Positions 15,786 to 54,560 of a stretch of DNA of 64,000 bases are shown one piece after another. Made by a program: the position numbers and the translations under genes. The DNA comes from Bacteroidales bacterium CF (lineage in GTDB: Bacteria; Bacteroidota; Bacteroidia; Bacteroidales; UBA932). The stretch spans positions 2,237,805 to 2,301,804 of the forward strand of contig CP006772.1 in the NCBI GenBank assembly GCA_000473305.1. The letters run 5' to 3'. The notes beneath the pieces were generated by a model that made no database searches, was not told the origin of the DNA, and saw nothing but the letters and a program-made list of their open reading frames with translations. Each line of letters opens with the position of its first letter. Position 1 is the stretch's first letter.

Positions 15786-15843
15786 GCTCTTTGACAAAGC
15801 TTAGGAAATAGCGTTGGCTTGTGCGGCTTTGGCAATGTGCTTA
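15786..15843 (+). repeat. conserved ~60-bp bracket motif, copy M1 (3' side of the efflux cassette)
   Basis: GCTCTTTGACAAAGCTTAGG..GCGTTGGCTTGTGCGGCTTTGGCAATGTGCTTAC. Direct repeat of M2 at 24891. Confidence 0.6.
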
Positions 15844-15891
15844 CAAAATGAGTAGGGTAATGAGGAAATTGTTTTAATGAATCTTAAAGCT

Positions 15892-16275
15892 TTATTTTGC
15901 TCCTCCATTTTCAGAAATGAATGTAATAAGAATTAATTTTTGCCCCCAATCATCTGGATATAGTTCTTTTATTGATTTTTCAAAAAATGTACTGTTATTA
16001 TACATTTCAGTATTAAGAAACCACTTGACATTCATATCTTCTTTTTGAATAGTTTTAAGGTTCCATTCATCTGATTCGATTACTTGAATAATTTCCATTA
16101 AAACTTTTTTATACAGCTTTTCCTTTGAACGAAAATAATAGTGAATGGCAGATTTATTAACGCCAGCTTTTTTGGCAATTTGCTGTAACGTTATTCCATA
16201 AAAACCATAACGTACAAAAATAGTTATTGCGGCATCTAGAATTTTTTGTTCTGTATTAAATTCTGGTGGTCTCAT
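15892..16275 (-). CDS. TetR/AcrR family transcriptional regulator
   Basis: 127 aa with a TetR HTH (YGFYGITLQQIAKKAGVNKSAIHYYFRSKEKLY). Confidence 0.75.
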   Translation of the reverse strand: MRPPEFNTEQKILDAAITIFVRYGFYGITLQQIAKKAGVNKSAIHYYFRSKEKLYKKVLMEIIQVIESDEWNLKTIQKEDMNVKWFLNTEMYNNSTFFEKSIKELYPDDWGQKLILITFISENGGAK

Positions 16276-16285
16276 TCTAACACTT

Positions 16286-17179
16286 TTAAAATCTTAGTTT
16301 TTCAGTCATAAAGCCAAAGCGCAGCACATCTAAACGGTGGTCGAAATACATGTTGTAGTAATCCGTTCCGTGGTAGTATTGTACAAAAAGCCCGATATCT
16401 TCCAGAAATTTTGGATGATAATAGAAAGTCAGGCTCAGGTTCAGGCGTTCAGCAGAAAAAACATCGAGTTGGTTGAAATCCCCAAACATCCATGTGATTT
16501 CACCTTTTATCGAAAAGGCTGACTTTTTTAAGTCTTCCTGGTTATTTCTTGACGAAAGTTTAAAAATAGAAAAGGCGTTATGCCAACGATATTGACTGTA
16601 AAATCCTTCCAACTCCTCCTGCATAAAGCCATTGGGGTGAACTTCGAACGACGTTTTAAAAAATTGATACGCATTAAAGCGTCTGTTTAGGTTGGTTTTG
16701 ATTAAACCGGCTTCCAGAAAATTGGTGGAAAAATCACCCGAATTATGATTAAAACTTCCGTCCTCCAGAATGAAATCACCGTCTTGACCGTTCGAGTGAT
16801 GTGCCGCACGAAGAAAGACGCTCGAACTTTTAAATTGATTTTTATCATTTAGTTTGTAGTAAACAGTAATTTGAGGCATATAACTGGGTGTACGCACCGG
16901 ATACGATTCTTCCTGGTACATACGAATAATGATTTGAGGAGTAAGAACGCCCATTAACCGGGCATTCTTACTTTTTCTCAAATAAAAGTTTGGAATAACA
17001 TTCCCTTCAAACCAAAGTGGTTCAATGTTCCCAATGTCGGTTGGAAAGGTAATGTAACTGTTCCCCTGATTAACCTGTGAAATAAGGGTTAATTCCATTT
17101 TCTGTTCTTTGTTTTCCTGACTCCGGGCAGCAAAGGCAAATAATATAAGTGCCAGAGTTAATTTTGCTTTGTATTTCAT
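16286..17179 (-). CDS. outer-membrane phospholipase A1-like protein
   Basis: 297 aa with a signal peptide. The HHSNGQDG motif resembles the OMPLA catalytic H-x-S-N-G segment. Confidence 0.45.
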   Translation of the reverse strand: MKYKAKLTLALILFAFAARSQENKEQKMELTLISQVNQGNSYITFPTDIGNIEPLWFEGNVIPNFYLRKSKNARLMGVLTPQIIIRMYQEESYPVRTPSYMPQITVYYKLNDKNQFKSSSVFLRAAHHSNGQDGDFILEDGSFNHNSGDFSTNFLEAGLIKTNLNRRFNAYQFFKTSFEVHPNGFMQEELEGFYSQYRWHNAFSIFKLSSRNNQEDLKKSAFSIKGEITWMFGDFNQLDVFSAERLNLSLTFYYHPKFLEDIGLFVQYYHGTDYYNMYFDHRLDVLRFGFMTEKLRF

Positions 17180-17180
17180 T

Positions 17181-17630
17181 TCACAGGTATATTATATGAA
17201 CTTCGATTTCTTTTTCCCCTACAAACTCAAATGCAGCTTTGGTGAAGCTCGGACGGTTTGAGATTTTCAGTGATGTGAAATTCGAAAAGCCAATCCCTTC
17301 TTTTGGAAGAATTAGTCCCTTTTTTACTCTCCCATCCTTATCTTCATCGTGCAATACGTTTACTGCATATTTGCCGCGAGGCAGGTTTAAGAATGTTATT
17401 TCGGCGCTACGGTTTTTTATTTTTGCAGTGTTTTTCCGATAATATTTCGTGTACTCTTCATCCGGAATGGAACCGTTGGTGTTGTAAAGAGCAAATTGCA
17501 CAACACCATTCTCATTTCTCAAATCTTTTACTTTTACGGTAAGCGGATAAGTTTCTTCTTTTTTATTCTGAAAAGAAGAACTTAGTAAAAGAAGTACGTT
17601 CAATTGTAGTATCCATCTTAGTTCTCTCAT
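17181..17630 (-). CDS. DUF2141-like secreted protein
   Basis: 149 aa with a signal peptide. Small beta-rich protein of the kind commonly adjacent to Bacteroidota efflux operons. Confidence 0.4.
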   Translation of the reverse strand: MRELRWILQLNVLLLLSSSFQNKKEETYPLTVKVKDLRNENGVVQFALYNTNGSIPDEEYTKYYRKNTAKIKNRSAEITFLNLPRGKYAVNVLHDEDKDGRVKKGLILPKEGIGFSNFTSLKISNRPSFTKAAFEFVGEKEIEVHIIYL

Positions 17631-20600
17631 GATTGCTTTTGTTTGTTAAACTTCTCTTTTACTGAGTCAACTACATAATAAACCACCGGAACTAAAAATA
17701 CAGTAAGAATAAGCGACGAAAGCAGCCCTCCTATAATTACCCAGGCCAGTCCGTTTTTCCATTCGCTGGCAGTACCCTGTGCAAGAGCAATGGGCAGCAT
17801 CCCAATTGCCATCGCCAGCGTGGTCATTAAAATCGGGCGCATCCGTTCTTTTCCGGCTATAATCAGGGCTTCTTTATAATGCTTGCCTTCGGCTTTTAGC
17901 TGGTTGGTGAAATCAACAATCAGGATAGCATTTTTGGTTACCAGTCCCATCAACATGATTAAGCCCAGGAGTGCAAACAAGGTGATGTCGTTGGCCGATA
18001 AATTCAAGGCGAGGAAAGCCCCGATAGCTGCTACCGGAATACCAAACAAGGCTACAAACGGATAGATGTAACTATCGTACAAAGCCACCATAATCAGGTA
18101 AATGAGTATAAACGAAATCAGCAATACCGAGCCAAGTGCTCCAAAACTTTCGTTCTGGGTTTTGATATCGGCGCCCCAGGTTAATTTTACGTTTTCAGGC
18201 AGTGGATGCAAGTCGAGGTGGGCAATTACATCATCGGCAAGAGTTCCTGATGGCCGGCCAAACGATTCGGCAGTAAGCGTAACCGAAGCCTGACGGTCGA
18301 GGCGTTCAAGCAGGGATGGTGAATTGTCTTGTTTTACTTCAGCAAACTGCGAAACTGTAATCGGCAGGTTCATAGGATTTACGATGGTCAGGTTCTGCAC
18401 ATCTTCGAAATTTTTCCGGCTAAAATCATCCAACCAGATGCGTACCGGATATTCGGTGCCGTTTTCTGTTAAAGTAGCATCCTCGTTTCCAGTAAAGGCC
18501 GTCCGTAAATTAATGCCAACATAAGCAGTATTAAGTCCCAGCCGCTGCATTTTGTCCTTATCCGGAATGACTTTGTATTCCGGATTTCCTTCCACCACCG
18601 AAAGTTGAACATTGTCAGCACCCGGTAAATTTTCAACCACTGCCTGTAAATTTTGCGCTGTTTCCATCACCTCAGAAAGATTGGCTCCACTCAGCGTAAT
18701 TTTTATGGGAGCCGATTTGGGTAGCAAGCCTATAAATGCCATAGAAAAGTTAATTCCCGAAAATTCTGCTTCCAGTTCATTACGGAGCGATTTCATAAAA
18801 GCTTCGGTTTTTATATTCCGTTCTTCTTCTGGTTTTAACTGAATGGTAAATTCTGATTTATTGGCAGAACCTACTCCGAGACTTCCAATTCCCGTACTCG
18901 GACCGGCAATGTTGCTAAACAAGGTGGCTACCTCTTCGTGTTGAAGAATGTAATTCTCAACCTGTTGCGAAACAATGTTATTCTGCTGAACCGTAATGGT
19001 TTTGTCAAATTCAAGATTCAAACGAAACTTCCCCTGGTCGCCGGTCGACATCATTTCTTTTCCTATGATTCCTTGTTTCATCATTCCGGCAGTGAGAATC
19101 AATAACAAAATCACAAAACCTGTAAAAATGAGTTTGTGACCCAATACCCAGCTCAATTGTTTTCCATACCATTGAATGAAGGTTTCCAGCTGATGTTCGA
19201 ACCAAAGCAAAAAGCGATTGAAAATATTGGTTGGCTGCAAATCTTCTTTTTTCCCGATGCGAGATGCCAGCCAGGGGGTTAACGTAAACCCAACCAGTAA
19301 GCTGGTTAAAGTTGAGGTAATTACAACCACCGCAAATTGTTTAAGCATATCGGCAATAAACACCTGTAAAAACAATATTGGCAGGAATACAACTACATCA
19401 ACCAAAGTAATTGAAAGGGCAGAAAATCCGATTTCCATTCGCCCATCCATGGAGGCAGTGCGTTTTTCTTTTCCCATGTCGAGATGGCGCTGAATGTTTT
19501 CGAGAACCACAATGGCATCGTCCACCAAAATTCCAATAATCAGCGACATGGCGAGCAAGGTCATCAGGTTTAAAGTATAGCCCAGCAGCCACATTACTGC
19601 AAAGGCCGTAATCAGCGAAGTTGGGATGGATATTAAAACAATGAGCGAATTGCGGTAACTGCGCAAAAACAGCAACATCACCACCGACACCAGAATTACC
19701 GCCAGAATCAGGTCGTGAACTACAGAATCAACGGCAGCAATGGTATTATCGGTAGAGTCGTCGGCAATAATAAATTTTACCCCTGATTCTTTGTTCTGTT
19801 CTTCAATACTAGCCAGTTTTTTACGCACTAATCCTGAAACATCCACCGCATTGGCATCGCCTTGTTTTTTTAGCAGCAAGCCAATTCCGTTTATTCCGTT
19901 GTACCGGCTCACCGACTCAATCTCTTTTACTCCGTCAATTACACTGGCTACATCTTTAACGTACACAGGGCTTCCAGGAAACGGCATTGCCAACTGTACA
20001 TCCATGATGTCGTCAGTTGTGGCGAACTTTCCGGTCAGTCGAACTGAATTATTAACTTTGTCAGACTGAACTTTTCCGGCAGGTAAATCCAATCCCGAGC
20101 GGTTAATCGATTCTACTACCTGCGACAAGGAAATTTTGTACAAGCGCAGTTTTTCCTGGTCAACTTTAACCTGAATTTCGCGTTCTTCTCCGCCCAGCAT
20201 AGTAATTTCTGCCACACCTTTCAACTGCTGAATCTGTGGAAGAAAGTCATCCTTCATTTTCTGATAAAACTCTGTCTCAGGCAGATTACTGGTCGCACTT
20301 ATCGAAATAATAGGCAAATCATTCGGTGAAACTTTACTCATTACCGGACTTTGAATGTCTACAGGCAAATCGGTTCGGATATTGTCAATATACCGTTGAG
20401 CATCCTGCATGGCATTGTCCACATTGGTTCCGTATTTCAGGTTGGCGATTATCACCGACGCATTTGGCATCGACTTGGTTTCGAGGTAATCCACTCCTTC
20501 GAGGTTCGACAATGCATCTTCAATTTTACGTGAAACAGAAGTTTCCACTTCCTGAGGCTCTGCACCCGGATAAATTGTTTTTATCACCACTACAGGCTGA

Positions 20601-20722
20601 TTAAAATCAGGCAGCAATTCGTAACTCAGGTTTTGATATCCGATAATCCCCAAAAGTGCAAATACACTGAAAAGCACAATTATTAGGGATGGTCGTTTAA
20701 TTGAAATTTCTGTAATATTCAT
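17627..20722 (-). CDS. efflux RND transporter permease subunit (AcrB/HAE1 family)
   Basis: 1031 aa, 12-TM RND architecture with large periplasmic loops. Confidence 0.95.
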   Translation of the reverse strand: MNITEISIKRPSLIIVLFSVFALLGIIGYQNLSYELLPDFNQPVVVIKTIYPGAEPQEVETSVSRKIEDALSNLEGVDYLETKSMPNASVIIANLKYGTNVDNAMQDAQRYIDNIRTDLPVDIQSPVMSKVSPNDLPIISISATSNLPETEFYQKMKDDFLPQIQQLKGVAEITMLGGEEREIQVKVDQEKLRLYKISLSQVVESINRSGLDLPAGKVQSDKVNNSVRLTGKFATTDDIMDVQLAMPFPGSPVYVKDVASVIDGVKEIESVSRYNGINGIGLLLKKQGDANAVDVSGLVRKKLASIEEQNKESGVKFIIADDSTDNTIAAVDSVVHDLILAVILVSVVMLLFLRSYRNSLIVLISIPTSLITAFAVMWLLGYTLNLMTLLAMSLIIGILVDDAIVVLENIQRHLDMGKEKRTASMDGRMEIGFSALSITLVDVVVFLPILFLQVFIADMLKQFAVVVITSTLTSLLVGFTLTPWLASRIGKKEDLQPTNIFNRFLLWFEHQLETFIQWYGKQLSWVLGHKLIFTGFVILLLILTAGMMKQGIIGKEMMSTGDQGKFRLNLEFDKTITVQQNNIVSQQVENYILQHEEVATLFSNIAGPSTGIGSLGVGSANKSEFTIQLKPEEERNIKTEAFMKSLRNELEAEFSGINFSMAFIGLLPKSAPIKITLSGANLSEVMETAQNLQAVVENLPGADNVQLSVVEGNPEYKVIPDKDKMQRLGLNTAYVGINLRTAFTGNEDATLTENGTEYPVRIWLDDFSRKNFEDVQNLTIVNPMNLPITVSQFAEVKQDNSPSLLERLDRQASVTLTAESFGRPSGTLADDVIAHLDLHPLPENVKLTWGADIKTQNESFGALGSVLLISFILIYLIMVALYDSYIYPFVALFGIPVAAIGAFLALNLSANDITLFALLGLIMLMGLVTKNAILIVDFTNQLKAEGKHYKEALIIAGKERMRPILMTTLAMAIGMLPIALAQGTASEWKNGLAWVIIGGLLSSLILTVFLVPVVYYVVDSVKEKFNKQKQS

Positions 20723-20730
20723 AAATCCGC

Positions 20731-21783
20731 TTATTTAAGGGTAACTTTGGCTCCATCGTAAAGATTGATAAAACCGTTAATGACAATCTGGTCGCCTTCC
20801 GAAATGCCTTTCTGAATAATGACCTTGTCTTCCAGCCTTTCGGCAATTGTTATGTCCTGGAGAACAGCATTTCCGTTTTTAACAACATAAACCTGAGGTT
20901 GAATGGTAGTGCCAACCATCGCCGATGCAGGAATACTGATTTGGTTTTCGTTGCCTCCTGATGTTACTTTTACTTTTCCGAACATTCCTGATTTTATTTT
21001 TAAGTCGGGGGTATTTTGCAATTCAAGCTGTACCGGATAACTGTTACCCATATTGGCTTTGCTGCCCACCATGCTTACTTTCCCTTCGAATGTTAATTCG
21101 GGATAAACGTCAGCCGATATCTTGCAAACCTGTTGAAATGAGAACTGCGCCATTTTGTTTTCAGGTACATTTACAGTAAACTTCAGTTTTGAGATTTCGG
21201 TAAGTTGCAGCAGTGGCATACCGGGAGCGGCAAATGCTCCTACTTCGGTTAATTTTGCCGTTACAATACCATTAAACGGCGCACGAATAGTTGTTTTGCT
21301 GATTTGTTCTTCCAATGTTGCTTTTTGAACCTTAGCTGTTTTAAGTCCCAATTCTGCTTTTTCAAGCTGAATACCCTGTACGGCATCGGCAGCAGATAAA
21401 ATGGTAAAGCGTTTTACATCGGTTTCCAGTCCTTCGATTTGTATTTCAACAGTCTGCAATTGAAGTTTTAACAGCGCATTATCCAATTGAATCAGCTTTT
21501 CACCTTTTTTCACCGAACTGCCTAAATCAACCAGAACCTCGCTCACCTTTCCCTGTATATCGGCGCTTAGCTTCGTTTCTTTTTGCGGTTCGAAAGTGCC
21601 GGTATACGTGTAGGTATTTGCCGAAATTGCTGAATTAACCAGCATTGCCTGCACGCTAATTGGTTTTTCTTTGTCGTACTGATAAACCCTTTTCTCTGTA
21701 ATTTCCTTGTTGCTTTTCAGTTTAAAAACTGTAAATGCAATGAGTGCCAAAATGGCAACCGTATAACTAATTTTTTTCAACAT
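20731..21783 (-). CDS. efflux RND transporter periplasmic adaptor subunit (MFP/HlyD family)
   Basis: 350 aa with a signal anchor, coiled-coil hairpin and beta-barrel regions. Confidence 0.9.
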   Translation of the reverse strand: MLKKISYTVAILALIAFTVFKLKSNKEITEKRVYQYDKEKPISVQAMLVNSAISANTYTYTGTFEPQKETKLSADIQGKVSEVLVDLGSSVKKGEKLIQLDNALLKLQLQTVEIQIEGLETDVKRFTILSAADAVQGIQLEKAELGLKTAKVQKATLEEQISKTTIRAPFNGIVTAKLTEVGAFAAPGMPLLQLTEISKLKFTVNVPENKMAQFSFQQVCKISADVYPELTFEGKVSMVGSKANMGNSYPVQLELQNTPDLKIKSGMFGKVKVTSGGNENQISIPASAMVGTTIQPQVYVVKNGNAVLQDITIAERLEDKVIIQKGISEGDQIVINGFINLYDGAKVTLK

Positions 21784-21795
21784 GATGTTTCTGTT

Positions 21796-23151
21796 TTATT
21801 TAATTGATGAAATATTTCCGCTTAGTTTTTTTAATTCCAAATCGGCTTTCAGGAATTCGATGATGGCTGTTAAATGGCTGGTTTGTGCTTCACTAACCGC
21901 ATTGTCGGCCAGAAGAACATCGGTAAGCGTTGCTGTTCCTTCTTTCTGTTGCAACACCATTTCGTTGTAGACCGTGGTCGCCAGGTCGATTTGGTTTTGT
22001 GTATTGTCAATGGTTTGTTGGTTTACCCGTCGCAAGCGGGTTGCGTTTTCAATCAGCATTTGGTTTTGTTCTTTCGCCAAATCGAATTGTATCTGATTAT
22101 TCTGGATTTCCAGTTTTTTCTGATTGATTTTTCGTTGTGTAACTGTTCCGTTAAAAAGGGGAACTGAAAGTTGCAACCCTGCAAAAGCCGTTGGGTAAAA
22201 GTTCAGGAAGTCGTTCGGCTTTTCATCGTAACCAAATCCCGTTTGTCCATAGCTTCCAAAAATCGAAACCGTGGGTAGACGCGAAGCTTTTAATGTGCTT
22301 AACTCGCTGGAAAGAAGTTTGTTTTGAGCAACAACCAACTCCAAATCCACTGGCAATATTGTAGAATAGGTCTCCAAATCCTTGTTTTCGATTTTAGTGT
22401 CAATCTGAATGATTTGATTAAACGGAATCCCCATCGAAAACTTCAGCGCATTCATCACTTGTTCAATATTGATATTCAACAATTCAAGCTGAGTGATTAA
22501 TTGTTCCTTTTGCAATTCTACTTTCGAAACGTCACTCTTTTTTATCATTTGTTGTGCATGCAGCAACTTTAGGTTATCTAGTAGTTTTGCGGTATTTACC
22601 AGGTTACTGTCAACAAAAGCTTTTTGATGACTTAAAATCTGAGCGTTATAAAACAGGTTCGAAATTTCGAAATAAACCTGTTCTTCTGTTTTTTTGTATT
22701 GAAGGCTGTTTAGCTCCGAAGCAATTTTTGTCGCTTCAATAGCGCCATAAACCTGTGGATTATACAAAGGCATTGCGACTTGAAGGTTAGCACCTATATT
22801 GTGCGGCACACCCATTTGCACTTCCTTGTACATTCCTTCGGGGCCGCCAAAAGCTGATTGTGGCATTAGTTGGTAAGGCAACTCAGCAAAATATTTGTAG
22901 TCGGCATTCAAACTGATTTTTGGTATAAGATTAGCTTTTGCCTCACTGTGTTTTTCTGTGGCCAAATTCATATTGTTCCTGCTCATTTGCAGGTTTTTAT
23001 TGTGTACCTGAGCTGTGTCGATGCATTGTTGCAAAGTCCATGTTTGTGCATTACTGTTCAGCGACAAAAATATTCCTGATAAAATCAGGAACAATAGTTT
23101 CGATTTGTGAATGCTCACTAACTTGTGTGTCCAAATTTTTTTGACTTTCAT
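21796..23151 (-). CDS. TolC-family outer-membrane efflux protein
   Basis: 451 aa with a signal peptide and two OEP repeats. First gene of the tolC-MFP-RND operon. Confidence 0.85.
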   Translation of the reverse strand: MKVKKIWTHKLVSIHKSKLLFLILSGIFLSLNSNAQTWTLQQCIDTAQVHNKNLQMSRNNMNLATEKHSEAKANLIPKISLNADYKYFAELPYQLMPQSAFGGPEGMYKEVQMGVPHNIGANLQVAMPLYNPQVYGAIEATKIASELNSLQYKKTEEQVYFEISNLFYNAQILSHQKAFVDSNLVNTAKLLDNLKLLHAQQMIKKSDVSKVELQKEQLITQLELLNINIEQVMNALKFSMGIPFNQIIQIDTKIENKDLETYSTILPVDLELVVAQNKLLSSELSTLKASRLPTVSIFGSYGQTGFGYDEKPNDFLNFYPTAFAGLQLSVPLFNGTVTQRKINQKKLEIQNNQIQFDLAKEQNQMLIENATRLRRVNQQTIDNTQNQIDLATTVYNEMVLQQKEGTATLTDVLLADNAVSEAQTSHLTAIIEFLKADLELKKLSGNISSIK

Positions 23152-23157
23152 TTTTTA

Positions 23158-23733: not shown

Positions 23734-23758
23734 TAACTAAATAATGCAAATTTTTTTC

Positions 23759-24097: not shown

Positions 24098-24107
24098 TTT
24101 TTGTTGA

Positions 24108-46400: not shown

Positions 46401-46528
46401 ATTAACGGATGGCGGTATGGTTAGTTGCCGATTTCGAAGCACTTTCCTGTCAAGTTACAACTACTTTTGATACGAGCTGTGCCGCTCGAATACCCACTGC
46501 ACCGGCAATTAACTATACCGCGTGTTGG
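46401..46528 (-). other. attC-like site (about 128 bp)
   Basis: CATTAACGG|ATGGCGGTATGGTTAGTTGCCG...CGGCAATTAACTATACCGCG TGTTGGC. The centre shares a TTTCGAAGCACTTTCCTGTCAAGTTACAACTACTTTTGATACGAGCTG block with other sites. Confidence 0.7.
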
Positions 46529-46697
46529 CAACTGGTGTTCATTCATATCCGTCTGTATTTCATATATTTAGCTTTATTTTCTTGTCATTATCAATCTGCA
46601 CGAACCTATCTACAAAGTACAAATTTATTTTGTTTTTTTGAGCGTGGGCAATCCCAAAACCGTCCTGAAAGGCGGTTACTCGGGCAGGAGAGGCGGA

Positions 46698-46756
46698 AGC
46701 TCTTCCCGCAAACTTTGGATTTGGTTTGGCTTTGAGCGGTTTGCGGGATGTGCTTA
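46698..46756 (+). repeat. bracket motif copy M5 (3' side of the TonB/TCS cassette)
   Basis: GCTCTTCCCGCAAACTTTGGATTTGGTTTGGCTTTGAGCGGTTTGCGGGATGTGCTTAC. Confidence 0.55.
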
Positions 46757-46770
46757 CGACTGTGGGATGG

Positions 46771-48186: not shown

Positions 48187-48260
48187 TTTTTAAATTTTTC
48201 AGATTATCAATAATTTAGGATAATTAATTAAGTTTTTCCTGATGAACAAAAAACTAACAA

Positions 48261-48959
48261 TTATTCAATTTGAATTTTCAAATCGTCAAAGTAAGTAACC
48301 GCATCCGCTTTTGTCCAAAAACCCACTTTGCCGGCATTAGTAAAAGTTTTGTCCTGCACTTTAAAAATCTCTTTTCCGTTAAGAAATACCGTAAACAAAT
48401 CGTCTTTCACCAACAATTTCAAAGTATTCCATCCTGTACCCAACGATGGTACATCCACGCCATAGGTCTTTCCTTTACCCACCAATGGCAGGTCGGTGCG
48501 TTTGCCATTCTCCACTTTATACAATACTACATTGTCTTCAAGCGGATTGGCACGCACCACATAATAGTTGTTTTTATCCGTAAATCGCCAAACAAAGCCG
48601 CCCCCTTGGTCGTGATTGCCTTTAACACCTTTTAGCCGAACAGTGAGTTCTATGTCTTTGGCTGAAATTTCATCGTTAACAATTACATTAAAATGGCCGT
48701 TGGGATTGTCGCTGTACAGTTGGCCCAATACTTTATTTCCCTGGTCATCCAATACTTTCCAATCGGTACTGCCTTGTCCGGTATAGAATTGAGACCAACC
48801 CGAAGGTAATTCTCCCGGTAATCCATTTTCAAAGCTGATAAGGGTGTCTTTAACTGTATTGGTAATAGAAGTTGGATTTTCAACAGTTTTATTCTTTGGA
48901 GTATTGCTATAAGCCATAATGCAGATAAGTGCAAAAAAAACAATCATTGGTGTTTTCAT
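48261..48959 (-). CDS. DUF1080-like (LamG/jelly-roll) secreted protein
   Basis: 232 aa with a signal peptide. ..GGGFVWRFTDKNNYYVVRAN..LKLLVKDDLFTVFLNGKEIFKV..GKVGFWTKADAVTYFDDLKI is typical of DUF1080. Confidence 0.5.
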   Translation of the reverse strand: MKTPMIVFFALICIMAYSNTPKNKTVENPTSITNTVKDTLISFENGLPGELPSGWSQFYTGQGSTDWKVLDDQGNKVLGQLYSDNPNGHFNVIVNDEISAKDIELTVRLKGVKGNHDQGGGFVWRFTDKNNYYVVRANPLEDNVVLYKVENGKRTDLPLVGKGKTYGVDVPSLGTGWNTLKLLVKDDLFTVFLNGKEIFKVQDKTFTNAGKVGFWTKADAVTYFDDLKIQIE

Positions 48960-48960
48960 A

Positions 48961-51375
48961 TCATTCGTTTTTAAATTTATTTTCTAAGAGTTTTTCTTTA
49001 AATTCTGACTTAAAGGTATAAGCAAAAATCAGCATAACTGCCCTTGTATCTACTTTCCGATAGTGTGTATATTCAAAATTGCTGCCAGAAACAGTAGATT
49101 CACTGCGCTGTGTATCAAATATATCGGTTACTGTCAAAGCCAAACGCCCCTGACCTTTTAAGATTTTTTGCTGAAACCCAAGGTCAATAAAATAAACTTC
49201 CTTTATAATGCCTTGTGGAATGACAATGGGCGATGTATAATTAGTTGTGATTTGAAACCTGCCGTTTTTCCAAACATCAAAATTGTTGATGAATTTAGCG
49301 TATCCTGACAACAAATTTTCCGGGGCATTTTGCAATTTGGCACTTGGTTCAATTCTTTGTTCGTATATTGATGCATCAAGATTTATTTTCCAAAAATTAA
49401 TCGGGTTATAAGTAAAAAAAGCTTCTGCCCCATAAGTGTAAGAATTGCCAAAATTTTCAGGCCTTGTGGTGCTGACCCCGTTATTGTCGATAGTGGTATA
49501 AGGGAAAATACTGTTGCTCGTCAGGCGGTAAAACAAGGAAGTCGTAAGGCTTGCCTTTTTAAAGGTTTGATTTTGTGTTAATTCAAATGAGTGTGAAATC
49601 TCAGGCTGAATATCGGGATTGCCCGACCAAACGTTCAGCGAATCGGTAATATCAATAAAGGGACTGTAATCACCGATAGAGGGTCTGTTTATTCGCTTGC
49701 TGTAAGCAAGTTTGAACGAATTTCTTTTGGGTGTGTAATAAATTAACGATGCCGATGGATAAAGTTGAAAATAGTTATTAGAAAAATTGTACGAAGACTG
49801 AACATTATCGCCTGTATTCAAAACCTGTTCAGGTCTGATGCCGAAGTGATATTTCAATTTCGGCTCTTGTTGTGTACCTGTCCAACCTGTGTATTGCAGA
49901 TAAAGAGCATGAATTTGTTCGTTGAATTTAAAAATATCGGTGTGAGATAAGTCGGTTATAAAACTGCCGTTTTGTTGGTTTGAACGAAGATAATCATCAT
50001 TGATAAACCTAAGCGTGGTTTTATAACCGGTTTCAAATAATCCTGATTCTTTTATCGGATGCAAATAGTTTATCGAGAAATTAGTCAGGTTGGCATCTTC
50101 GTAAAAATGTGTTTTCTGTAAAAACGGGCTGCCTATCTCTGCGTTTTCCTCCGATAAGCTTTGAGTAGAGATGTCGGTGTTTTCCCTGTTGTATTCAATG
50201 GCAGAATTTGCATCTATGGAAAGTACCCTGTTCTGAATGAAATTTCTCGTATAATTGAACAAGAGTTCGCCAGTTTGGAAACGTCTTATTTCGTTTGAAA
50301 ATCGGCTGTTACGGCTTGTAAAGTCATGCAATGATGTTTCTGTGGTGCTAACAATGGTTTCATAATTATCTTGTCCTTCAAAAAGCCAAATCCCTTCCAA
50401 TTTAAAACTGTTTTTAGAATTTGGGGTATAGCCCACATTAAACCGTGCCGTTTGGGTTTGTATGGTACGTTCGTCTTCCCGTGGCTGTGATAGAAAATGG
50501 TTATCGTCAGAATCGTATTGAACACGCTGTTTGTTTACCGTGCGTGTTCTGGTAGTAAACCAATTGTCGTAAGCCAGGCCTAAATCCCATTTGTTTGTAT
50601 TATGATTAAAAAGGAAGGAGCCATTTAAGCGATAGCGTGCTCCAAAACCGCCTCCTAAAGCTGCCGCTCCGTTTGTGCCAAGGTTTGTATTATTTTTAAG
50701 TACAATGTTTATAATTCCACTTTCGGCATCGGCATCGTATTTTGCAGAAGGATTTGTAAGAATTTCGATACGCTCGATGGTACTTGCCGGGATTTGTTCC
50801 AAATTTGTAACTCTGTCCACTCCACCAATAGCCGAAACCCTGCCGTTTATCATTATCAAGGGGGTTTTTCCACGCATAGTTAAATTTCCTTCCATATCAA
50901 CCTGAACCCCGGGCATATTTTTCATTAAGTCGGCTGCCGTACCGCCAATTTGTGTCAAATTTTCCGATGCGTTCACCACAATTCCCTCATCTGTTCTCTG
51001 AATCAGGTTGCGAAAAGCTGTTATTTCAATAGCGTTCAATGCGATTGCATCCTGTTTCATTATAATGGTTCCCAAATCTATATTTTTGCTTACATCGTCA
51101 AGTATTACTGTTTGTTGATGATTTAAGAATCCGATAAACCGAAACTGAATAAAATATTTACCAAGGGGGACATTCGTTAAATCAAAACTGCCCGTATTGT
51201 CTGTAACCGTTCCGTTAACGATAGTCGTTGAATCGTTAACGGAAGTAAGAAAAACATTGACAAATTCAACAATATTGTTTTCGCTGTCTAATACTTTGCC
51301 TGATATGCTTCCTGATTTTTGCCCAAAAGCCAATACATGTATTAACAGCATTAGTGTAATTAATCCATATCTCAT
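48961..51375 (-). CDS. TonB-dependent outer-membrane receptor (SusC-like, with CarboxypepD_reg N-domain)
   Basis: 804 aa with a signal peptide, an N-terminal carboxypeptidase-regulatory-like domain, plug and barrel, and a C-terminal aromatic residue. Confidence 0.85.
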   Translation of the reverse strand: MRYGLITLMLLIHVLAFGQKSGSISGKVLDSENNIVEFVNVFLTSVNDSTTIVNGTVTDNTGSFDLTNVPLGKYFIQFRFIGFLNHQQTVILDDVSKNIDLGTIIMKQDAIALNAIEITAFRNLIQRTDEGIVVNASENLTQIGGTAADLMKNMPGVQVDMEGNLTMRGKTPLIMINGRVSAIGGVDRVTNLEQIPASTIERIEILTNPSAKYDADAESGIINIVLKNNTNLGTNGAAALGGGFGARYRLNGSFLFNHNTNKWDLGLAYDNWFTTRTRTVNKQRVQYDSDDNHFLSQPREDERTIQTQTARFNVGYTPNSKNSFKLEGIWLFEGQDNYETIVSTTETSLHDFTSRNSRFSNEIRRFQTGELLFNYTRNFIQNRVLSIDANSAIEYNRENTDISTQSLSEENAEIGSPFLQKTHFYEDANLTNFSINYLHPIKESGLFETGYKTTLRFINDDYLRSNQQNGSFITDLSHTDIFKFNEQIHALYLQYTGWTGTQQEPKLKYHFGIRPEQVLNTGDNVQSSYNFSNNYFQLYPSASLIYYTPKRNSFKLAYSKRINRPSIGDYSPFIDITDSLNVWSGNPDIQPEISHSFELTQNQTFKKASLTTSLFYRLTSNSIFPYTTIDNNGVSTTRPENFGNSYTYGAEAFFTYNPINFWKINLDASIYEQRIEPSAKLQNAPENLLSGYAKFINNFDVWKNGRFQITTNYTSPIVIPQGIIKEVYFIDLGFQQKILKGQGRLALTVTDIFDTQRSESTVSGSNFEYTHYRKVDTRAVMLIFAYTFKSEFKEKLLENKFKNE

Positions 51376-51385
51376 AAATCAACAA

Positions 51386-52363
51386 TTATTTTGTATTTGC
51401 CACCCACAAACGTTTTGGGTTTTTCCCAACCGGAATAGTCGCCACCACTTTCCAATTTGCAACATCAATAATACTGGCATCATTTGATGAAGTGTTGCTT
51501 ACAACTGCAAATTTACCGTCAGAAGTTAGTTCTATCCAGTTTGGGTTTTTGCCGGCTGTAATATTTTTCAGGATTTTATCCGATGCTACATCAATAGCCG
51601 TTACATCGTTAGTAAACTGGCTCGTCAGGTAAACGGTTTTGCCGTCAGGAGCTACAGAAAGTCCGTGGGCTGCTTTCCCTTCGTTATCAAATTTGTCCGA
51701 TTGCGGTAAAAGAACCTGGGCTATGATTTTGTTTTGCTCCGCATCAATTTTTACCTGTCCGTGAAACCAGCGAATGGTCAGATAAATATATTTTCCGTCA
51801 GGTGTAGCGGTCATCACTCTCGGAAATCCGAAAGTTGGAATTTCTGCTACGACTTTCATGCTGTCCAGATTCACTTTTACGATTTTATTGTCTCCTTCGG
51901 AAGTTACCCAAGCTGTTTTCCCATCTGACATAGGCAATACAATGTGTGGGTTTTTGCCAACGGGAATTGAATTGACCAACTTCCAATTAGCGGTTGAAAT
52001 CACATCAACCTTATGTTCTCCGTTGATGGCGGTTAAAACATACTTACCGTCAATGCTGAAACTTAACTGGTGAGGTGTCTTACCAACGGAAATGGTCTGT
52101 TTTACTTTATTGTCGGCGGCACTAATAATAGAAACTGTATTATCGCCTTCATTGCTTACGGCAATCCAATTTCCGTCAGGTGAAACGGCTACCCCATGCG
52201 GCTTGCTCCCTGTAGTAATATCGGCAATTTTTTGATTTTTCTGAATGTCAATAACAGAAATAAAGTCGCTGCCATAGTTGGTAATGTAAGCTTTTGGCGT
52301 TTGAGCAAAAAGCACTGTACTAATTAGTGTTATTGCTGTTGTCAAGATTATTTTGCTGTTCAT
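51386..52363 (-). CDS. YVTN-family beta-propeller repeat protein
   Basis: 325 aa with a signal peptide and repeated ..S.DGK..YV.N...S.IDV.. units. Confidence 0.7.
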   Translation of the reverse strand: MNSKIILTTAITLISTVLFAQTPKAYITNYGSDFISVIDIQKNQKIADITTGSKPHGVAVSPDGNWIAVSNEGDNTVSIISAADNKVKQTISVGKTPHQLSFSIDGKYVLTAINGEHKVDVISTANWKLVNSIPVGKNPHIVLPMSDGKTAWVTSEGDNKIVKVNLDSMKVVAEIPTFGFPRVMTATPDGKYIYLTIRWFHGQVKIDAEQNKIIAQVLLPQSDKFDNEGKAAHGLSVAPDGKTVYLTSQFTNDVTAIDVASDKILKNITAGKNPNWIELTSDGKFAVVSNTSSNDASIIDVANWKVVATIPVGKNPKRLWVANTK

Positions 52364-52437
52364 TTTTCAATAGTTTTAAATGATTTACCTTACAAAGGAA
52401 ACCATTGAATCTGTAGAAAAATGGGAATCGGAACTGT

Positions 52438-53721
52438 TTATTGAAAATTCACTTCGAAGATATGCAAGGCTCCATCACTTCGGTAACAAAGTTCCCAACC
52501 GCTGGTATCTGCAATTTTTTTAGCTATGGACAATCCGAGACCCCACGAATCAGGATTTCCCGATTGCTTATAAAAACGGTTAAACAATTTTTCTTTATCC
52601 AACATTGAGCCTTCTTCATCTTTTTTGTGGCCTGAATTGGAAATAGTAAGCTGCTTTTCTCCTACATAAATGGTTAGTATGCCATTTTCTGTATTATGCA
52701 AAAAAGCATTTTTAAGCAGGTTCTGAATAAGAATTTCCGTGAGCATGATATTGCCCTGTACTGTCAGTTGGGTTTCTGATTTAATCGTTACTGAAATATT
52801 AAGTTTTGATTTCTGTTCTTCATAATATTCCATTGACTGCCGTATAATCTGATTTACATCAACCTGGTCAGTTAACAGGAACTGACGATTTTCAATTTTC
52901 GATAGTAAAAGAAGGGTTTTATTTAGTTTTTTTAAACGTTGGGTGGAGCTTATAAGTCCTTCCACAATCTCTGCCTGCTCTTTTGTCAACTCTGCCCGCC
53001 CTATTAGGGCTTCCAGTCGTGACTGCATTACGGCAAGTGGTGTTTGCATTTCATGGGAGGCATTTTCAATAAATTGTTTTTGACTGGTAAATACTTCCAT
53101 ATTTTTCAAAACCAATTCATTAATGGACTCATTAAGCATCTTAAATTCTTCAATCTGAGAAGATGATAACTCTGGAAGCTGCTGCTTGTCGAGGCGAAAA
53201 CCACGAAGTTTTTCCAACATATCGTAGAATGGTTTCCAAATTTTTCGTGAAATTATTCGCTGTGATAAATAAAAAGAGAGTGATAGCCCGGTAAGCAAAA
53301 TTCCAAGAAAAAAGGCAATTGTGCCTAACATTTCATCGGCTTCAAGATGCGGTGCTAAAATCTCCAATTTGTAATATTGGTTATGGATTTCTACAAAAGT
53401 GTTTAATTTCCTGTATTCATCGAGTTCATCATCTACAGGTTCATAAATTAGCGTATCTGTATAGTTTTCTTTGCTTTTTTGGAAAGTTGCAGCATCTATG
53501 GCATAAAAAGTAAAATCGTCCAGCGGGTTATCACCTTGAAATGGAGCTTCAGGATTGGTTTTGAGGTATGCAAGCAGGTTAATTTTTCTATTATGCAACA
53601 CCTCGTCCACATTCCGAAGTACATCCCAGTTAAGCACTACGTAAAACAGAATGGAAAAAATTCCAAACAGAATCATGAAATAACGCAACTGAATCCGTGA
53701 GGTGTAGGTAAGTAGCTTCAT
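52438..53721 (-). CDS. sensor histidine kinase
   Basis: 427 aa with two TM helices, a HisKA H-box (ASHEMQTPL) and a HATPase_c domain. Confidence 0.85.
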   Translation of the reverse strand: MKLLTYTSRIQLRYFMILFGIFSILFYVVLNWDVLRNVDEVLHNRKINLLAYLKTNPEAPFQGDNPLDDFTFYAIDAATFQKSKENYTDTLIYEPVDDELDEYRKLNTFVEIHNQYYKLEILAPHLEADEMLGTIAFFLGILLTGLSLSFYLSQRIISRKIWKPFYDMLEKLRGFRLDKQQLPELSSSQIEEFKMLNESINELVLKNMEVFTSQKQFIENASHEMQTPLAVMQSRLEALIGRAELTKEQAEIVEGLISSTQRLKKLNKTLLLLSKIENRQFLLTDQVDVNQIIRQSMEYYEEQKSKLNISVTIKSETQLTVQGNIMLTEILIQNLLKNAFLHNTENGILTIYVGEKQLTISNSGHKKDEEGSMLDKEKLFNRFYKQSGNPDSWGLGLSIAKKIADTSGWELCYRSDGALHIFEVNFQ

Positions 53722-54401
53722 CGTGCTTTTATTTGATAACCTATTCCATAAACATTGTTAATTTCTACGTCTGCCCCGGCTTCTTTCAGCTTACGTTTTA
53801 AGTTCCTTATCTGTGAGAAAAGGAAATCGAAACTTTGGGCTTCATCCACATAATCTCCCCAGATATATTCTGCCAGTGATACCTTGGAAAGAACCCGTTT
53901 ATGATTATTAATGAGATAGCTAAGTAAAGCGAATTCTTTTTTAGTAAATGAAATGGGGTTATCAAGGTTGCTTACACCAATGAGGTGTTGGTCTGGTTCA
54001 ATAATCAGGTTAGAAAAGTGTACGATTTTGTTTGTCTTAAATTGCTTTCTACGGATAATGGCTTTAATTCTGGCATTTAGCTCAGAGAAATAGAATGGTT
54101 TGGTAAGGTAATCGTCGGCACCCAGTCCAAGCCCTTTTAGTTTATCATCTAATGAATCACGTGCTGAAAGTATTATGACCCCATTTGTCTTGCCTTCTTT
54201 ATGCAGGGCTTCAAGTATATCGAAACCATTTCCGTCAGGAAGGTTAATATCAAGTACAATGCAATCGTAGTCGTAAAGAGCGATGCGTTCAGCAGCAGAA
54301 CAAAATCCTTGGGAAGAATCATACAGGTATCCCTCTTTGGATGCAAAATCTTCCAAACTTTTTAATAATTGCGGTTCGTCTTCTACGATAAGTAATTTCA
54401 T
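53718..54401 (-). CDS. OmpR-family response regulator
   Basis: 227 aa with a receiver domain (LIVEDEP...D..LDINLPDG) and a winged-helix output domain. Confidence 0.9.
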   Translation of the reverse strand: MKLLIVEDEPQLLKSLEDFASKEGYLYDSSQGFCSAAERIALYDYDCIVLDINLPDGNGFDILEALHKEGKTNGVIILSARDSLDDKLKGLGLGADDYLTKPFYFSELNARIKAIIRRKQFKTNKIVHFSNLIIEPDQHLIGVSNLDNPISFTKKEFALLSYLINNHKRVLSKVSLAEYIWGDYVDEAQSFDFLFSQIRNLKRKLKEAGADVEINNVYGIGYQIKAR

Positions 54402-54496
54402 AAATACAAATTAAGGGATAAATTCTGTAGAAACATTGGAGATATTTTATGCCTGATAATATTCTCTAAAATGTCCGAGGGTTCCTGGTGGTAGGC

Positions 54497-54560
54497 TGCA
54501 CTCTTTGACAAAGCTTTGGTTTCAGCGTTGGCTCGTGGGGCTTTGGCAATGTGTGCAATG
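54497..54560 (+). repeat. bracket motif copy M6 (5' side of the TonB/TCS cassette)
   Basis: GCACTCTTTGACAAAGCTTTGGTTTCAGCGTTGGCTCGTGGGGCTTTGGCAATGTGTGCAATG. Confidence 0.6.

What the first reader, a model, noticed from the sequence alone, without database searches (positions are those of the whole stretch)
15786..54560. A ~60-bp motif occurs as direct repeats bracketing each of the three unusually large multi-gene cassettes
The motif GCACTCTTTG(A/G)CAAAGCTTTGG...GCGTTGGCTTGTGGGGCTTTGGCAATGTG, and a GCTCTTTTGCAAACTTTGG...GGCTTTGAGCGGTTTGC variant, appears six times. It always lies 150-200 bp inside an attC. The pairs are in direct orientation at the two ends of the 9.5-kb RND efflux cassette (15786 and 24891), the 7.3-kb bactofilin/SPFH cassette (25324 and a degenerate copy at 32695) and the 8.2-kb TonB/two-component cassette (46698 and 54497). 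Single-gene cassettes lack it. This suggests the big operons entered, or are maintained in, the array as a distinct kind of module. Possible roles are secondary recombination or att sites, transcription terminators or insulators at cassette borders, or the ends of another mobile unit nested in cassettes.
Basis: seen in the sequence. Interest (0 to 1): 0.7.

Follow-up and report, generated by a model that had tools for sequence, protein, structure and literature searches.

The report
Hairpin borders of big integron cassettes
The repeated ~65-base motif is a conserved folding hairpin that sits at both inner edges of large, self-expressed gene cassettes in Bacteroidota integrons; it is not where the cassettes recombine, and it carries a textbook "boxA" signal, which points to control of transcription at the cassette borders.

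Summary
A covariance model finds exactly six copies in the window, all on the + strand. They bracket three operons that lie on the - strand.

Each copy is a hairpin: a 7-bp outer stem, a TCTT/ATGT internal loop, a 9-bp inner stem and a G/T-rich loop, with G-rich boxes on both flanks. Stem covariation is strong.

The same module occurs in more than 119 genome loci, almost all Bacteroidota. It is always in direct pairs around cargo on the opposite strand. One subtype ends 10-14 nt after the last stop codon. The other lies just upstream of the operon's promoter. Conserved arms connect the hairpins to the attC.

All three window cassettes turn up about 99.9% identical in many different neighbourhoods. 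The shared blocks end at attC crossover points, with both hairpins inside. The hairpins are therefore not recombination sites and not the ends of a nested element.

The 5' half of the hairpin is a consensus boxA (GCTCTTTGACAA), but on the strand antisense to the cargo.

My best reading is an RNA-level transcription boundary or elongation-control module belonging to a cassette "frame". Function is unproven. I found no Rfam family and no paper describing it.

The parts
15781..15845 (+). Hairpin at the 3' end of the RND-efflux cassette (A-like subtype, outer stem TGTAAGC/GCTTACA). Carries GCTCTTTGACAA. The model hit including the flanking boxes spans 15767-15860.
24888..24954 (+). Hairpin at the 5' end of the RND-efflux cassette (B subtype, ATTGCAC/GTGCAAT). 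Lies 193 nt upstream of the TetR start codon. An exact -7 box, TAAATTTG, lies between the hairpin and that gene, at 24736 on the - strand.
25319..25382 (+). Hairpin at the 3' end of the bactofilin/SPFH cassette (outer stem AGCAAGC/GCTTGCT, inner stem TTGCAAAC/GTTTGCAA). The last gene's stop codon ends 17 nt away.
32690..32753 (+). Hairpin at the 5' end of the bactofilin/SPFH cassette (E subtype, AAATGGC/GCCATTT, inner stem TGACTTTTGC/GCAAAAGGTA).
46694..46758 (+). Hairpin at the 3' end of the TonB/two-component cassette (C subtype, CGGAAGC/GCTTACG, inner stem CCCGCAAAC/GTTTGCGGG). The stop codon ends exactly 12 nt away.
54495..54559 (+). Hairpin at the 5' end of the TonB/two-component cassette (B-like subtype). 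Carries ACTCTTTGACAA.
15492..25057 (-). RND-efflux integron cassette, defined as the block shared between at least five genomic contexts. It runs from attC crossover to attC crossover and contains two hairpins.
25052..32921 (-). Bactofilin/SPFH integron cassette, defined as the block shared between at least four contexts. It contains two hairpins.
46403..54750 (-). TonB receptor/two-component integron cassette, defined as the block shared between eight contexts. It contains two hairpins.
15486..15627 (.). attC of the RND cassette (long class, about 135 nt). Starts 153 nt outside hairpin 15781.
25051..25189 (.). attC of the bactofilin/SPFH cassette. Lies between hairpins 24888 and 25319.
46398..46539 (.). 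attC of the TonB cassette. Starts 154 nt outside hairpin 46694.
54746..54799 (.). Short-class attC upstream of the TonB cassette. The cassette's 5' boundary, ...TTGCCAAC|, falls at about 54750.
46540..46693 (-). Conserved 3' arm of the TonB cassette. It contains a small hairpin (AACCGCC..GGCGGTT) followed by TTTT. It also contains an exact Bacteroidota-type -7 box, TAAATTTG, at 46627, with TTG 21 nt upstream, pointing towards the attC.
54560..54745 (-). Conserved 5' arm of the TonB cassette. It contains an inverted copy of the 19-mer AAATTTATTTTGTTTTTTT (54596-54614) and a sense-oriented boxA-like GCTTTTTGACA (54676 to 54666).

Best explanation
**What it is.** The motif is the stem-loop core of a conserved non-coding frame that Bacteroidota integrons use for large cassettes carrying their own promoter. 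In gene orientation the frame reads: cassette 5' boundary, 5' arm, hairpin, the operon's own promoter, the operon, stop codon, about 12 nt, hairpin, 3' arm, attC.

**What it is not.** The hairpins are not recombination sites. The cassette moves from attC to attC with both hairpins inside.

**Proposed role (inferred).** I read the hairpins as RNA-level transcription boundary or elongation-control elements.
- On the strand that reads TCTT...ATGT, which has the polarity of the attC bottom strand and is antisense to the cargo, the module is nut-like. It has a consensus boxA (GCUCUUUGACAA), whose invariant core GCUCUUU lies partly in the internal loop. A stem and G/U-rich tracts follow. Such a site would load NusB-NusE on polymerases moving in that direction, so that Rho does not stop them within the multi-kilobase untranslated antisense of a big cassette.
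- On the sense RNA the same module is a C-rich, G-poor untranslated patch. It starts right at the stop codon at the 3' border and lies just upstream of the operon's promoter at the 5' border. That is where a Rho entry site or boundary would uncouple the operon from read-through along the array.

**Shown.** Six copies exist and their stems covary. The layout is the same in many genomes. The cassettes move by attC. The boxA identity and its strand are established.

**Inferred.** That RNA rather than single-stranded DNA is the active form. That Nus factors or Rho act on it. That + strand transcripts exist at all.
For: **Structure.** In an alignment of 45 diverse copies, 92.7% of cells are paired, against 64% in shuffles and at most 48% when partners are slid. 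Thirteen of 16 pairs change on both sides. Among 132 unique copies there are 51 inner-stem and 49 outer-stem variants. The internal loop is kept: TCTT in 129/132 and ATGT in 128/132.

**Layout.**
- In 22 loci with at least two copies, the copies are always direct and, apart from part of L116, the cargo is on the opposite strand.
- The 3' subtypes end 10-14 nt (mode 12) after the stop codon of the last ORF in 31 of 78 non-redundant cases.
- In 22 of 56 cases the 5' subtypes are followed, within 60 nt in gene orientation, by the Bacteroidota -7 box TAnnTTTG, clustered at 27-28 and 38-40 nt.

**boxA.** Forty of 132 copies match G[CT]TCTTT[GA]A[CA]A[AT] at 12 of 12 positions and 29 more at 11 of 12. 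In 883 kb, 43 of the 54 matches lie inside hairpins, against about 1.7 matches expected by chance. The boxA sequences published for Bacteroidetes CRISPR leaders are CGCTCTTTGACAAG and AGTTCTTTGACAT (PMC7665894, supplementary file 4). The A of GACAA is retained even though it usually faces a G, a conserved mismatch seen in 65 of 132 copies.

**Further boxA-like elements in the frame.** A sense-oriented one lies in 13 of 39 5' arms. GCTCTTAGACA occurs on the + strand in ORF-less cassettes of the window.

**Composition.** The modules are G>C skew peaks on the + strand, at the 97.5-99.8 percentile. On the sense RNA they are therefore C-rich and G-poor.

**Not recombination sites.**

**Selection.** Hairpins are 92-100% identical where the adjacent arm is 80-95% identical and the cargo is unrelated.
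Against: - The boxA is antisense to the cargo genes, and I have no transcript data showing + strand RNA.
- I found no exact Bacteroidota promoter on the + strand upstream of the 3' hairpins (and reading of the arms).
- About a third of copies (subtypes C/D, E and the CCCG variant) depart from boxA after GCTCTTT. The window copy at 46694 reads GCTCTTCCCGCA.
- Part of boxA is base-paired in the folded hairpin.
- Wobble pairs give no strand preference: 29 G-T against 21 A-C, p = 0.3.
- The hairpin is not followed by a U-tract, and the highly structured module is not a typical Rho entry site.
- Hairpin orientation follows the attC rather than the genes (L116). That is equally what a single-stranded DNA role would predict.
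- The invariance of CTCTT and ATGTG was partly imposed by my search pattern.
Confidence: 0.4

Rival explanations
1. The hairpin is a single-stranded DNA or cruciform accessory element of the integron. It folds on the same strand as the recombinogenic attC bottom strand. It, or its G-rich GTTGGC boxes, is bound by the integrase or by an architectural protein such as the HU-HIG protein encoded next to the integrase. This would help very long cassettes to synapse, excise or survive as single-stranded circles.
For: - Every hairpin lies on the same strand as the attC model hits. The attC is found 29-157 nt outside 40 of 65 testable 3' hairpins, and on the cargo side in only one case.
- Orientation follows the attC even where cargo genes point the other way (L116).
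- The geometry resembles a folded attC: a 7-bp outer helix, an unpaired spacer, a 9-bp helix with a conserved mismatch, and a terminal loop.
- The flanking and loop boxes GCGTTGGCT resemble the attC end TGTTGGC.
- An HU-HIG gene lies next to the integrase in L001.
Against: - The hairpin lacks the AAC/GTT core that defines integrase recognition.
- No cassette boundary coincides with a hairpin in any of the roughly 20 contexts compared.
- This reading leaves the 12-of-12 boxA match as coincidence.
- It does not explain the fixed 12-nt spacing to the stop codon or the position just upstream of promoters.
Confidence: 0.2
2. Only the sense-strand RNA matters. The hairpins would be processing or stability signals, for example RNase III-type sites like those that punctuate phage T7 early transcripts. 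They would cut the operon mRNA out of read-through transcripts and cap its 3' end. The boxA match on the other strand would then be irrelevant.
For: - The helix totals about 20-22 bp and is interrupted by a conserved 4x4 internal loop.
- The hairpin starts 12 nt after the stop codon, so a terminating ribosome would not melt it.
- A copy sits at each end of the transcription unit in the same orientation.
- A small hairpin followed by TTTT, and then a -7 box, follow the 3' hairpin in C-type arms.
Against: - The 5' copy lies upstream of the operon's own -7 box, so it would be present only in read-through RNA.
- The conserved loop and flanking boxes are not needed by RNase III.
- The boxA identity would have to be chance.
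- There is no experimental or transcript evidence.
Confidence: 0.15
3. The hairpins are the working ends, or the scars, of a cargo-loading mechanism. In this view an attC-bearing non-coding backbone (hairpin, arm, attC, arm, hairpin) acquires whole operons between its two hairpins. Alternatively, a hairpin-ended non-autonomous element inserted into an empty cassette.
For: - The constant frame carries very diverse cargo: type III restriction-modification, TOTE, Gabija-like, TonB receptors, carotenoid genes and RND efflux.
- The break between conserved and unrelated sequence is sharp, 12-14 nt beyond the hairpin, often at the stop codon.
- The 3' arm plus attC is 90-95% identical between cassettes with unrelated cargo.
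- The two ends keep distinct subtypes (A/C versus B/D/E).
- The two arms are partly inverted repeats of each other.
Against: - I saw no presence/absence polymorphism bounded by hairpins.
- No transposase or HUH enzyme appeared in the cargo sampled.
- I found no empty frame.
- Homologous recombination within the conserved hairpins and arms could spread arms between cassettes without any dedicated mechanism.
Confidence: 0.1
4. The motif is a neutral or selfish repeat. It could be a terminator-like intergenic repeat of a donor lineage that hitch-hiked when the operons became cassettes, with no present function.
For: It is a repeat that breaks short-read assemblies: several contigs start inside it.
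Against: - It shows phylum-wide conservation with compensatory stem changes.
- The hairpins are better conserved than the arms next to them.
- Its placement relative to stop codons, promoters and the attC is fixed.
- Viral contigs gave only 3 hits.
Confidence: 0.05

Closest known systems
boxA / nut-type processive antitermination sites (rRNA leaders, phage lambda nutL/nutR, and the boxA upstream of CRISPR arrays described by Stringer et al. 2020, PMC7665894)
   Same: The hairpin carries the same 12-nt consensus, GCUCUUUGACAA, that is published for Bacteroidetes CRISPR leaders. A stem-loop and G/U-rich tracts follow it, which is the boxA, hairpin, boxC order of lambda nut as I recall it. It is associated with long stretches that are untranslated in that polarity.
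   Different: - It lies antisense to the protein-coding cargo.
- boxA forms part of a conserved, covarying hairpin rather than a free single strand.
- It occurs as two copies bracketing an operon inside an integron cassette.
- No promoter has been identified for that polarity.
- Binding of Nus factors is untested.
Integron attC sites
   Same: Both are imperfect hairpins with an unpaired spacer and a conserved mismatch. Both lie on the same strand, and sequence conservation is concentrated at unpaired positions. The flanking boxes GTTGGC resemble the attC core.
   Different: The hairpin has no AAC/GTT core and never marks a cassette boundary. It occurs twice per cassette, on the inner side of the true attC. 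It is far more conserved in sequence than attC sites are.
RNase III processing hairpins that punctuate phage T7 early mRNAs (R1.1 and others), and synthetic-biology insulator hairpins
   Same: These are also irregular hairpins of about 20 bp with an internal loop, placed in one orientation at the borders of expression units.
   Different: I have no evidence of cleavage. The motif has a large conserved loop and flanking boxes. The 5' copy lies upstream of the unit's promoter.
Hairpin-ended single-strand transposons (IS200/IS605 and their cargo-less PATE derivatives), and pdif modules bounded by Xer sites
   Same: In both, two related structured sites lie on one strand and flank a variable segment.
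   Different: Here the flanks are constant and the interior varies. Mobility is by attC. I saw no transposase and no polymorphism bounded by hairpins.

Membership tests
Integron attC site | An imperfect palindrome whose outer (R) box carries the conserved AAC...GTT triplets at the crossover. | tested here: not met
   The outer stems are TGCAAGC/GCTTGCA, ATTGCAC/GTGCAAT, CGGAAGC/GCTTACG and similar. None carries AAC/GTT. The true attCs of the window do.
Integron attC site | It marks the boundary of the unit that moves, with the crossover inside the site. | tested here: not met
   The shared blocks of all three cassettes end at the attC, with both hairpins internal.
Integron attC site | It folds as a single-stranded hairpin with an unpaired central spacer and unpaired bases. 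| tested here: met
   There are two helices separated by a 4x4 internal loop, and a conserved A.G mismatch. This is a resemblance in shape only.
boxA / nut-type antitermination site | It carries the boxA consensus (E. coli rrn UGCUCUUUAACAA; Bacteroidetes CRISPR leaders GCUCUUUGACAA). | tested here: met
   Forty of 132 unique copies match at 12 of 12 positions and 29 at 11 of 12. Forty-three of the 54 matches in 883 kb fall inside hairpins, against about 1.7 expected. Reference sequences come from PMC7665894, supplementary file 4.
boxA / nut-type antitermination site | It lies on the transcribed strand, downstream of a promoter, at the start of a long Rho-sensitive transcription unit. | tested here: inconclusive
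   It is antisense to the cargo genes. No exact -7/-33 promoter of that polarity was found in the arms. No transcript data are available.
boxA / nut-type antitermination site | It binds NusB-NusE and suppresses Rho termination. | not testable with these tools
   This needs binding assays and reporter or bicyclomycin experiments.
Intrinsic (Rho-independent) terminator | A G+C-rich hairpin immediately followed by a U-tract. | tested here: not met
   The terminator scan found none around the hairpins on either strand. The flanks read AAGCCAACGC or UUUGCC in sense and AAUAGCG or GUGGGUGG in antisense.
Hairpin-ended or inverted-repeat mobile element (IS200/IS605, PATE, MITE) | Its ends coincide with presence/absence differences between genomes, and some copies encode a transposase. 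| tested here: not met
   No context difference is bounded by hairpins. The cargo sampled in 13 units encodes defence, transport and metabolic proteins and no transposase.
Genome-wide intergenic repeat (REP/BIME-like) | Many copies scattered through the chromosome with no tie to one kind of locus. | tested here: inconclusive
   Where the flanks were long enough, 57 of 113 hairpins have a recognisable attC on the outer side and 1 on the inner side. Most of the rest sit in arrays of small co-oriented ORFs or next to attI-like sequence. Whole genomes could not be scanned.
Any Rfam family | It reaches a family's gathering score. | tested here: not met
   The only Rfam hit in the window is DUF805b, elsewhere. 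The E-value scan across two copies gave only a chance microRNA match.

The most novel reading that the evidence does not exclude
The frame could be a cassette-building vehicle. In this reading an attC-bearing non-coding backbone loads whole operons between its two hairpins, with the junction set at the stop codon on one side and at the promoter on the other. That would be a concrete mechanism for how integron cassettes are made, a question that has stayed open.

A related variant is also not excluded. Nus-modified antisense transcription through the G-rich arms could form R-loops that expose the attC bottom strand for the integrase.
Probability: 0.1. Interest if true: 0.9.

Novelty: new variant of a known kind. 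Interest (0 to 1): 0.7.

Why it matters
Integron cassettes are usually pictured as small, promoterless, single-gene units whose only conserved part is the attC. Here 8-10 kb operons, many of them defence systems in other genomes, travel as cassettes. They sit inside a conserved non-coding frame with its own promoters and two structured, strand-specific border elements. The frame is shared across a phylum in which integrons are barely catalogued.

If the borders control transcription, for example through boxA and Nus factors or through Rho, this would be a natural insulated expression cassette. It would also be a new setting for processive antitermination.

If the borders are loading sites, they bear on how cassettes originate.

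Either way, the element gives a simple sequence handle (covariance model R1) for finding large cassettes in Bacteroidota metagenomes. It also explains why short-read assemblies break at these positions.

Tried and rejected
- **Crude attC finder.** A search for AAC...GTT hairpins with an energy cut-off missed attCs I already knew. I replaced it with nhmmer models built from the window's attCs.
- **Strand call from wobble pairs.** My first descriptor counted G-T as paired and gave 48 G-T against 15 A-C. An unbiased rescan gave 29 against 21, which is not significant. I dropped the claim that the + strand folds better. The energy difference is not explained by wobble pairs in the stems.
- **Intrinsic terminator.** Rejected, because no U-tract follows the hairpin.
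- **Sigma-54 promoter, G-quadruplex, and sso or oriT-like origins.** I considered these from the sequence alone. I set them aside because spacing or consensus did not fit and they offered no test.
- **Rfam.** Nothing relevant.
- **Phage origin.** Only 3 hits in 2.9 million viral contigs.
- **Literature.** Four searches found no description of this element.
- **Promoter in the arms.** I first read the 19-mer AAATTTATTTTGTTTTTTT in the arms as an inward-facing promoter. The exact -7 box is in fact on the other strand of the 3' arm and points outward towards the attC.
- **Still missing.** I could not obtain a Bacteroidota rRNA leader to compare the boxA context.

Full report
**1. The observation**

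Pattern searches recover the motif at the stated places. A structural descriptor (outer stem, TCTT, inner stem, loop, ATGT, outer stem) finds exactly six copies, all on the + strand. A covariance model built later from 45 diverse homologues scores these six at 41-85 bits, and the next best window hit at 11.8 bits. Nearly all genes in the window lie on the - strand.

The six copies form three direct pairs around three operons:
- a TetR, cupin and RND-efflux operon at 15892-24695;
- a bactofilin/SPFH operon at 25400-32633;
- a two-component, beta-propeller, TonB-receptor and OEP operon at 46771-54401.

**2. Anatomy**

Each copy folds into a 7-bp outer helix, a 4x4 internal loop (TCTT opposite ATGT), a 9-bp inner helix and a G/T-rich loop of about 25 nt containing TTTGG and GCGTTGGCT. 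The stems differ between copies in a compensatory way. Examples are TGACAAAGC/GCTTTGGCA, TTGCAAAC/GTTTGCAA, CCCGCAAAC/GTTTGCGGG and TGACTTTTGC/GCAAAAGGTA.

G-rich boxes of the form GYGKTGGC flank both sides of each hairpin. The modules are local peaks of G>C skew on the + strand.

**3. What moves**

I looked up the exact protein sequences of one gene from each cassette in public assemblies.
- The RND operon occurs about 99.9% identical in at least five neighbourhoods. These include one directly downstream of a 287-aa tyrosine recombinase and an attI-like site.
- The TonB cassette occurs in eight neighbourhoods.
- The SPFH cassette occurs in at least four.

BLAST shows that the shared blocks are window 25057 to 15492, 54750 to 46403, and 32921 to about 25052. 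Each block runs from one attC crossover point to the next, with both hairpins inside. These are therefore canonical, though very large, integron cassettes of 9.6, 8.3 and 7.9 kb. The hairpins are internal parts and not boundaries. Several short-read contigs begin inside a hairpin, which shows that the hairpin is a repeat in those communities.

**4. The family**

I scanned one genome per species with a pattern that does not depend on the stems. Almost all were Bacteroidota of many families, plus Melioribacter. Viral contigs gave only 3 hits.

The descriptor and the model find about 140 hairpins in these loci. They fall into recurrent subtypes defined by the outer stem: A (TGCAAGC), B (ATTGCAC), C (CGGAAGC), D (TTGCAGC) and E (AAATGGC).

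In 22 loci with two or more copies, the copies are always direct. The cargo is on the opposite strand; part of L116 is the exception. Subtypes A and C lie at the 3' end of the cargo, and B, D and E at the 5' end. The window follows the same rule.

Formal pair counts show strong covariation. TCTT and ATGT are almost invariant, although my pattern partly imposed that.

**5. The frame**

Conservation continues outward from each hairpin to the attC. A 3' arm of about 150 nt leads to a long-class attC. A 5' arm of about 160-210 nt leads to the cassette's 5' boundary (...TTGTTGCCAAC| in motif orientation). Beyond that boundary the sequences diverge, into another attC or into attI-like sequence.

nhmmer models of the window's attCs find an attC 29-157 nt outside 40 of 65 testable 3' hairpins and outside 17 of 48 testable 5' hairpins. 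The attC is on the same strand as the hairpin in all but one more distant case (L117), and lies on the cargo side only once.

The two arms of a cassette are partly inverted repeats of each other. The hairpins and G-boxes, by contrast, are direct.

On the cargo side the conserved sequence stops 12-14 nt beyond the hairpin.
- At the 3' end, the stop codon of the last ORF ends 10-14 nt (mode 12) from the hairpin in 31 of 78 non-redundant cases.
- At the 5' end, an exact Bacteroidota -7 box (TAnnTTTG) follows within 60 nt in 22 of 56 cases, clustered at 27-28 and 38-40 nt.

The cargo is very diverse. It includes type III restriction-modification, a TOTE-type system, a Gabija-like pair, helicase/ATPase systems, TonB receptors, carotenoid genes, and AraC with TauE.

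Arms and attC can be 90-95% identical, and hairpins 95-98% identical, between cassettes whose cargo is unrelated.

**6. The molecular clue**

On the motif strand, the 5' half of the hairpin reads GCTCTTTGACAAAGC in subtypes A and B, and GCTCTTTTGCAAGCC in C and D. This matches boxA, the NusB-NusE binding element of rRNA leaders and lambda nut sites (my own knowledge).

Stringer et al. list boxA elements upstream of CRISPR arrays. For Bacteroidetes they give CGCTCTTTGACAAG (Haliscomenobacter) and AGTTCTTTGACAT (Odoribacter, Tannerella) (PMC7665894, supplementary file 4).

Forty of 132 unique hairpins match a degenerate boxA consensus at all 12 positions and 29 more at 11. In 883 kb of sequence, 43 of the 54 matches are inside hairpins, where about 1.7 matches would be expected by chance.

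The invariant part of the hairpin, GCTCTTT, is the core of boxA. The A of GACAA is retained even though it usually faces a G. G/U-rich tracts such as GTGGGG and TGTGGGTGGGG follow, reminiscent of boxC (my own knowledge).

The difficulty is polarity. This boxA is on the strand antisense to the cargo, which is the same polarity as the attC bottom strand.

Other boxA-like elements exist in the frame. A sense-oriented GCT(C/T)TTTGA(C/T)A lies in 13 of 39 5' arms. GCTCTTAGACA occurs on the + strand in ORF-less cassettes of the window.

**7. Interpretation**

Stem covariation requires that the element folds as a single strand, either RNA or DNA. Its placement is consistent: it starts right after the stop codon and lies just upstream of the promoter. 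It is kept in direct orientation at both borders. It carries the boxA identity, and the composition of its two strands is strongly asymmetric. Together these make a transcription boundary or elongation-control element the best-supported reading.

I give this reading 0.4. The polarity problem is unresolved, no transcripts are available, and wobble pairs do not identify the folded strand.

The rivals are:
- a single-stranded DNA role in integron recombination (0.2), favoured by the strict co-orientation with the attC and the attC-like shape;
- a sense-RNA processing or stability element (0.15);
- a cargo-loading site or its scar (0.1), favoured by the constant frame, the variable cargo and the sharp junctions;
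- a neutral repeat (0.05).

The hairpin is not an attC, because it has no AAC/GTT core and no crossover. It is not an intrinsic terminator. It is not in Rfam.

**8. Novelty**

IntegronFinder 2.0 reports almost no complete integrons in Bacteroidetes (PMC9024848). The integrase seen here is short and XerA-like: it scores 221 bits on the XerA/integron-integrase model and 209 bits on TIGR02249, below that model's cut-off. That may explain why such arrays go unclassified.

I found no description of the hairpin or of the frame. I therefore rate it as a new variant of known kinds, boxA-type elements and integron cassettes, in an unexpected arrangement. Its function is unproven.

Noticed in passing
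L001:4671-5662 (also L133:3013-4626): The integron platform next to these cassettes has a tyrosine recombinase co-oriented with the cassettes, not divergent from them. In L001 it is 287 aa and scores as XerA/integron integrase, below the TIGR02249 cut-off. An HU-HIG gene lies upstream, and the attI reads ...TATACGCAATATCGTATACACATAC|GTTACCA. In L133 a 485-aa integrase precedes the TonB cassette. Such arrays would probably be reported as attC clusters lacking an integrase.
   Followed up: partly
L005:7399-8586 and L005:10717-12033: In one metagenome the RND cassette carries a DDE insertion sequence inside the operon. It also has a group II intron reverse transcriptase at its attC: homology to the window stops at 15612, inside the attC. 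This fits the known habit of attC-targeting group IIC introns.
   Followed up: no
window 32917-33594, 35985-36453, 45776-46453, 55797-56307, 57826-58881, 60187-60863, 61583-62093: Families of repeated, apparently ORF-less cassettes of about 250-380 nt lie between attCs (repeat finder families D1-D3 and D6). One family contains a long hairpin, CGCCTTTGGCTCATGGTTT...AAAACCTGTGACAAAGGCG. Another carries GCTCTTAGACA, which resembles lambda-type boxA, on the + strand about 75 nt before an attC.
   Followed up: partly
window 54666-54676 (- strand), and 13 of 39 5' arms in other loci: A sense-oriented boxA-like element, GCT(C/T)TTTGA(C/T)A, is a conserved part of the 5' arm. It lies 80-130 nt upstream of the 5' hairpin in gene orientation.
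   Followed up: partly
window 46620-46627 (- strand): An exact Bacteroidota -7 box, TAAATTTG, with TTG 21 nt upstream, lies in the 3' arm of the TonB cassette. It comes after a small hairpin followed by TTTT and points at the attC and the next cassette. It may re-start array transcription downstream of a big cassette.
   Followed up: no
3' hairpins in L011-L129 and window 46759-46773: The stop codon of the last cargo ORF, nearly always TAA or TAG, sits at a fixed distance from the hairpin (mode 12 nt). It runs straight into the C-rich box, as in TAA|GCCAACGCTATT|hairpin. This holds across dozens of unrelated cargos.
   Followed up: partly
L002-L010, L133-L148: The three big cassettes are about 99.9% identical in assemblies from many unrelated samples. 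The TonB receptor protein is indexed in 116 blocks of the collection, which implies very recent spread. A related genome, Bacteroidales bacterium UBA5536 (L100), carries the RND cassette at 96-98% identity with the same attC boundary.
   Followed up: partly
L053:7284-7372 and L069:20-86: Two rare hairpin variants close the internal loop by full complementarity: TCTT/AAGA in one and ACAT/ATGT in the other. They could be decayed copies, or forms that show what the loop is needed for.
   Followed up: no
window 61484-61518 (- strand): There is a DUF805b RNA motif (Rfam RF02914, 42 bits) inside the array.
   Followed up: no
window 8881-11202, 33582-35870 and 5148-5960: Two IS21 copies (istA/istB) lie on the + strand, opposite to the cassette genes. 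One IS3-type transposase is also inserted in the array.
   Followed up: no
L116:50-4760: In this unit three of the four cargo genes run in the motif's own orientation. Hairpin orientation therefore follows the attC and the frame, not the genes. In this case the boxA hairpin sits about 100 nt upstream of a co-oriented three-gene operon.
   Followed up: no
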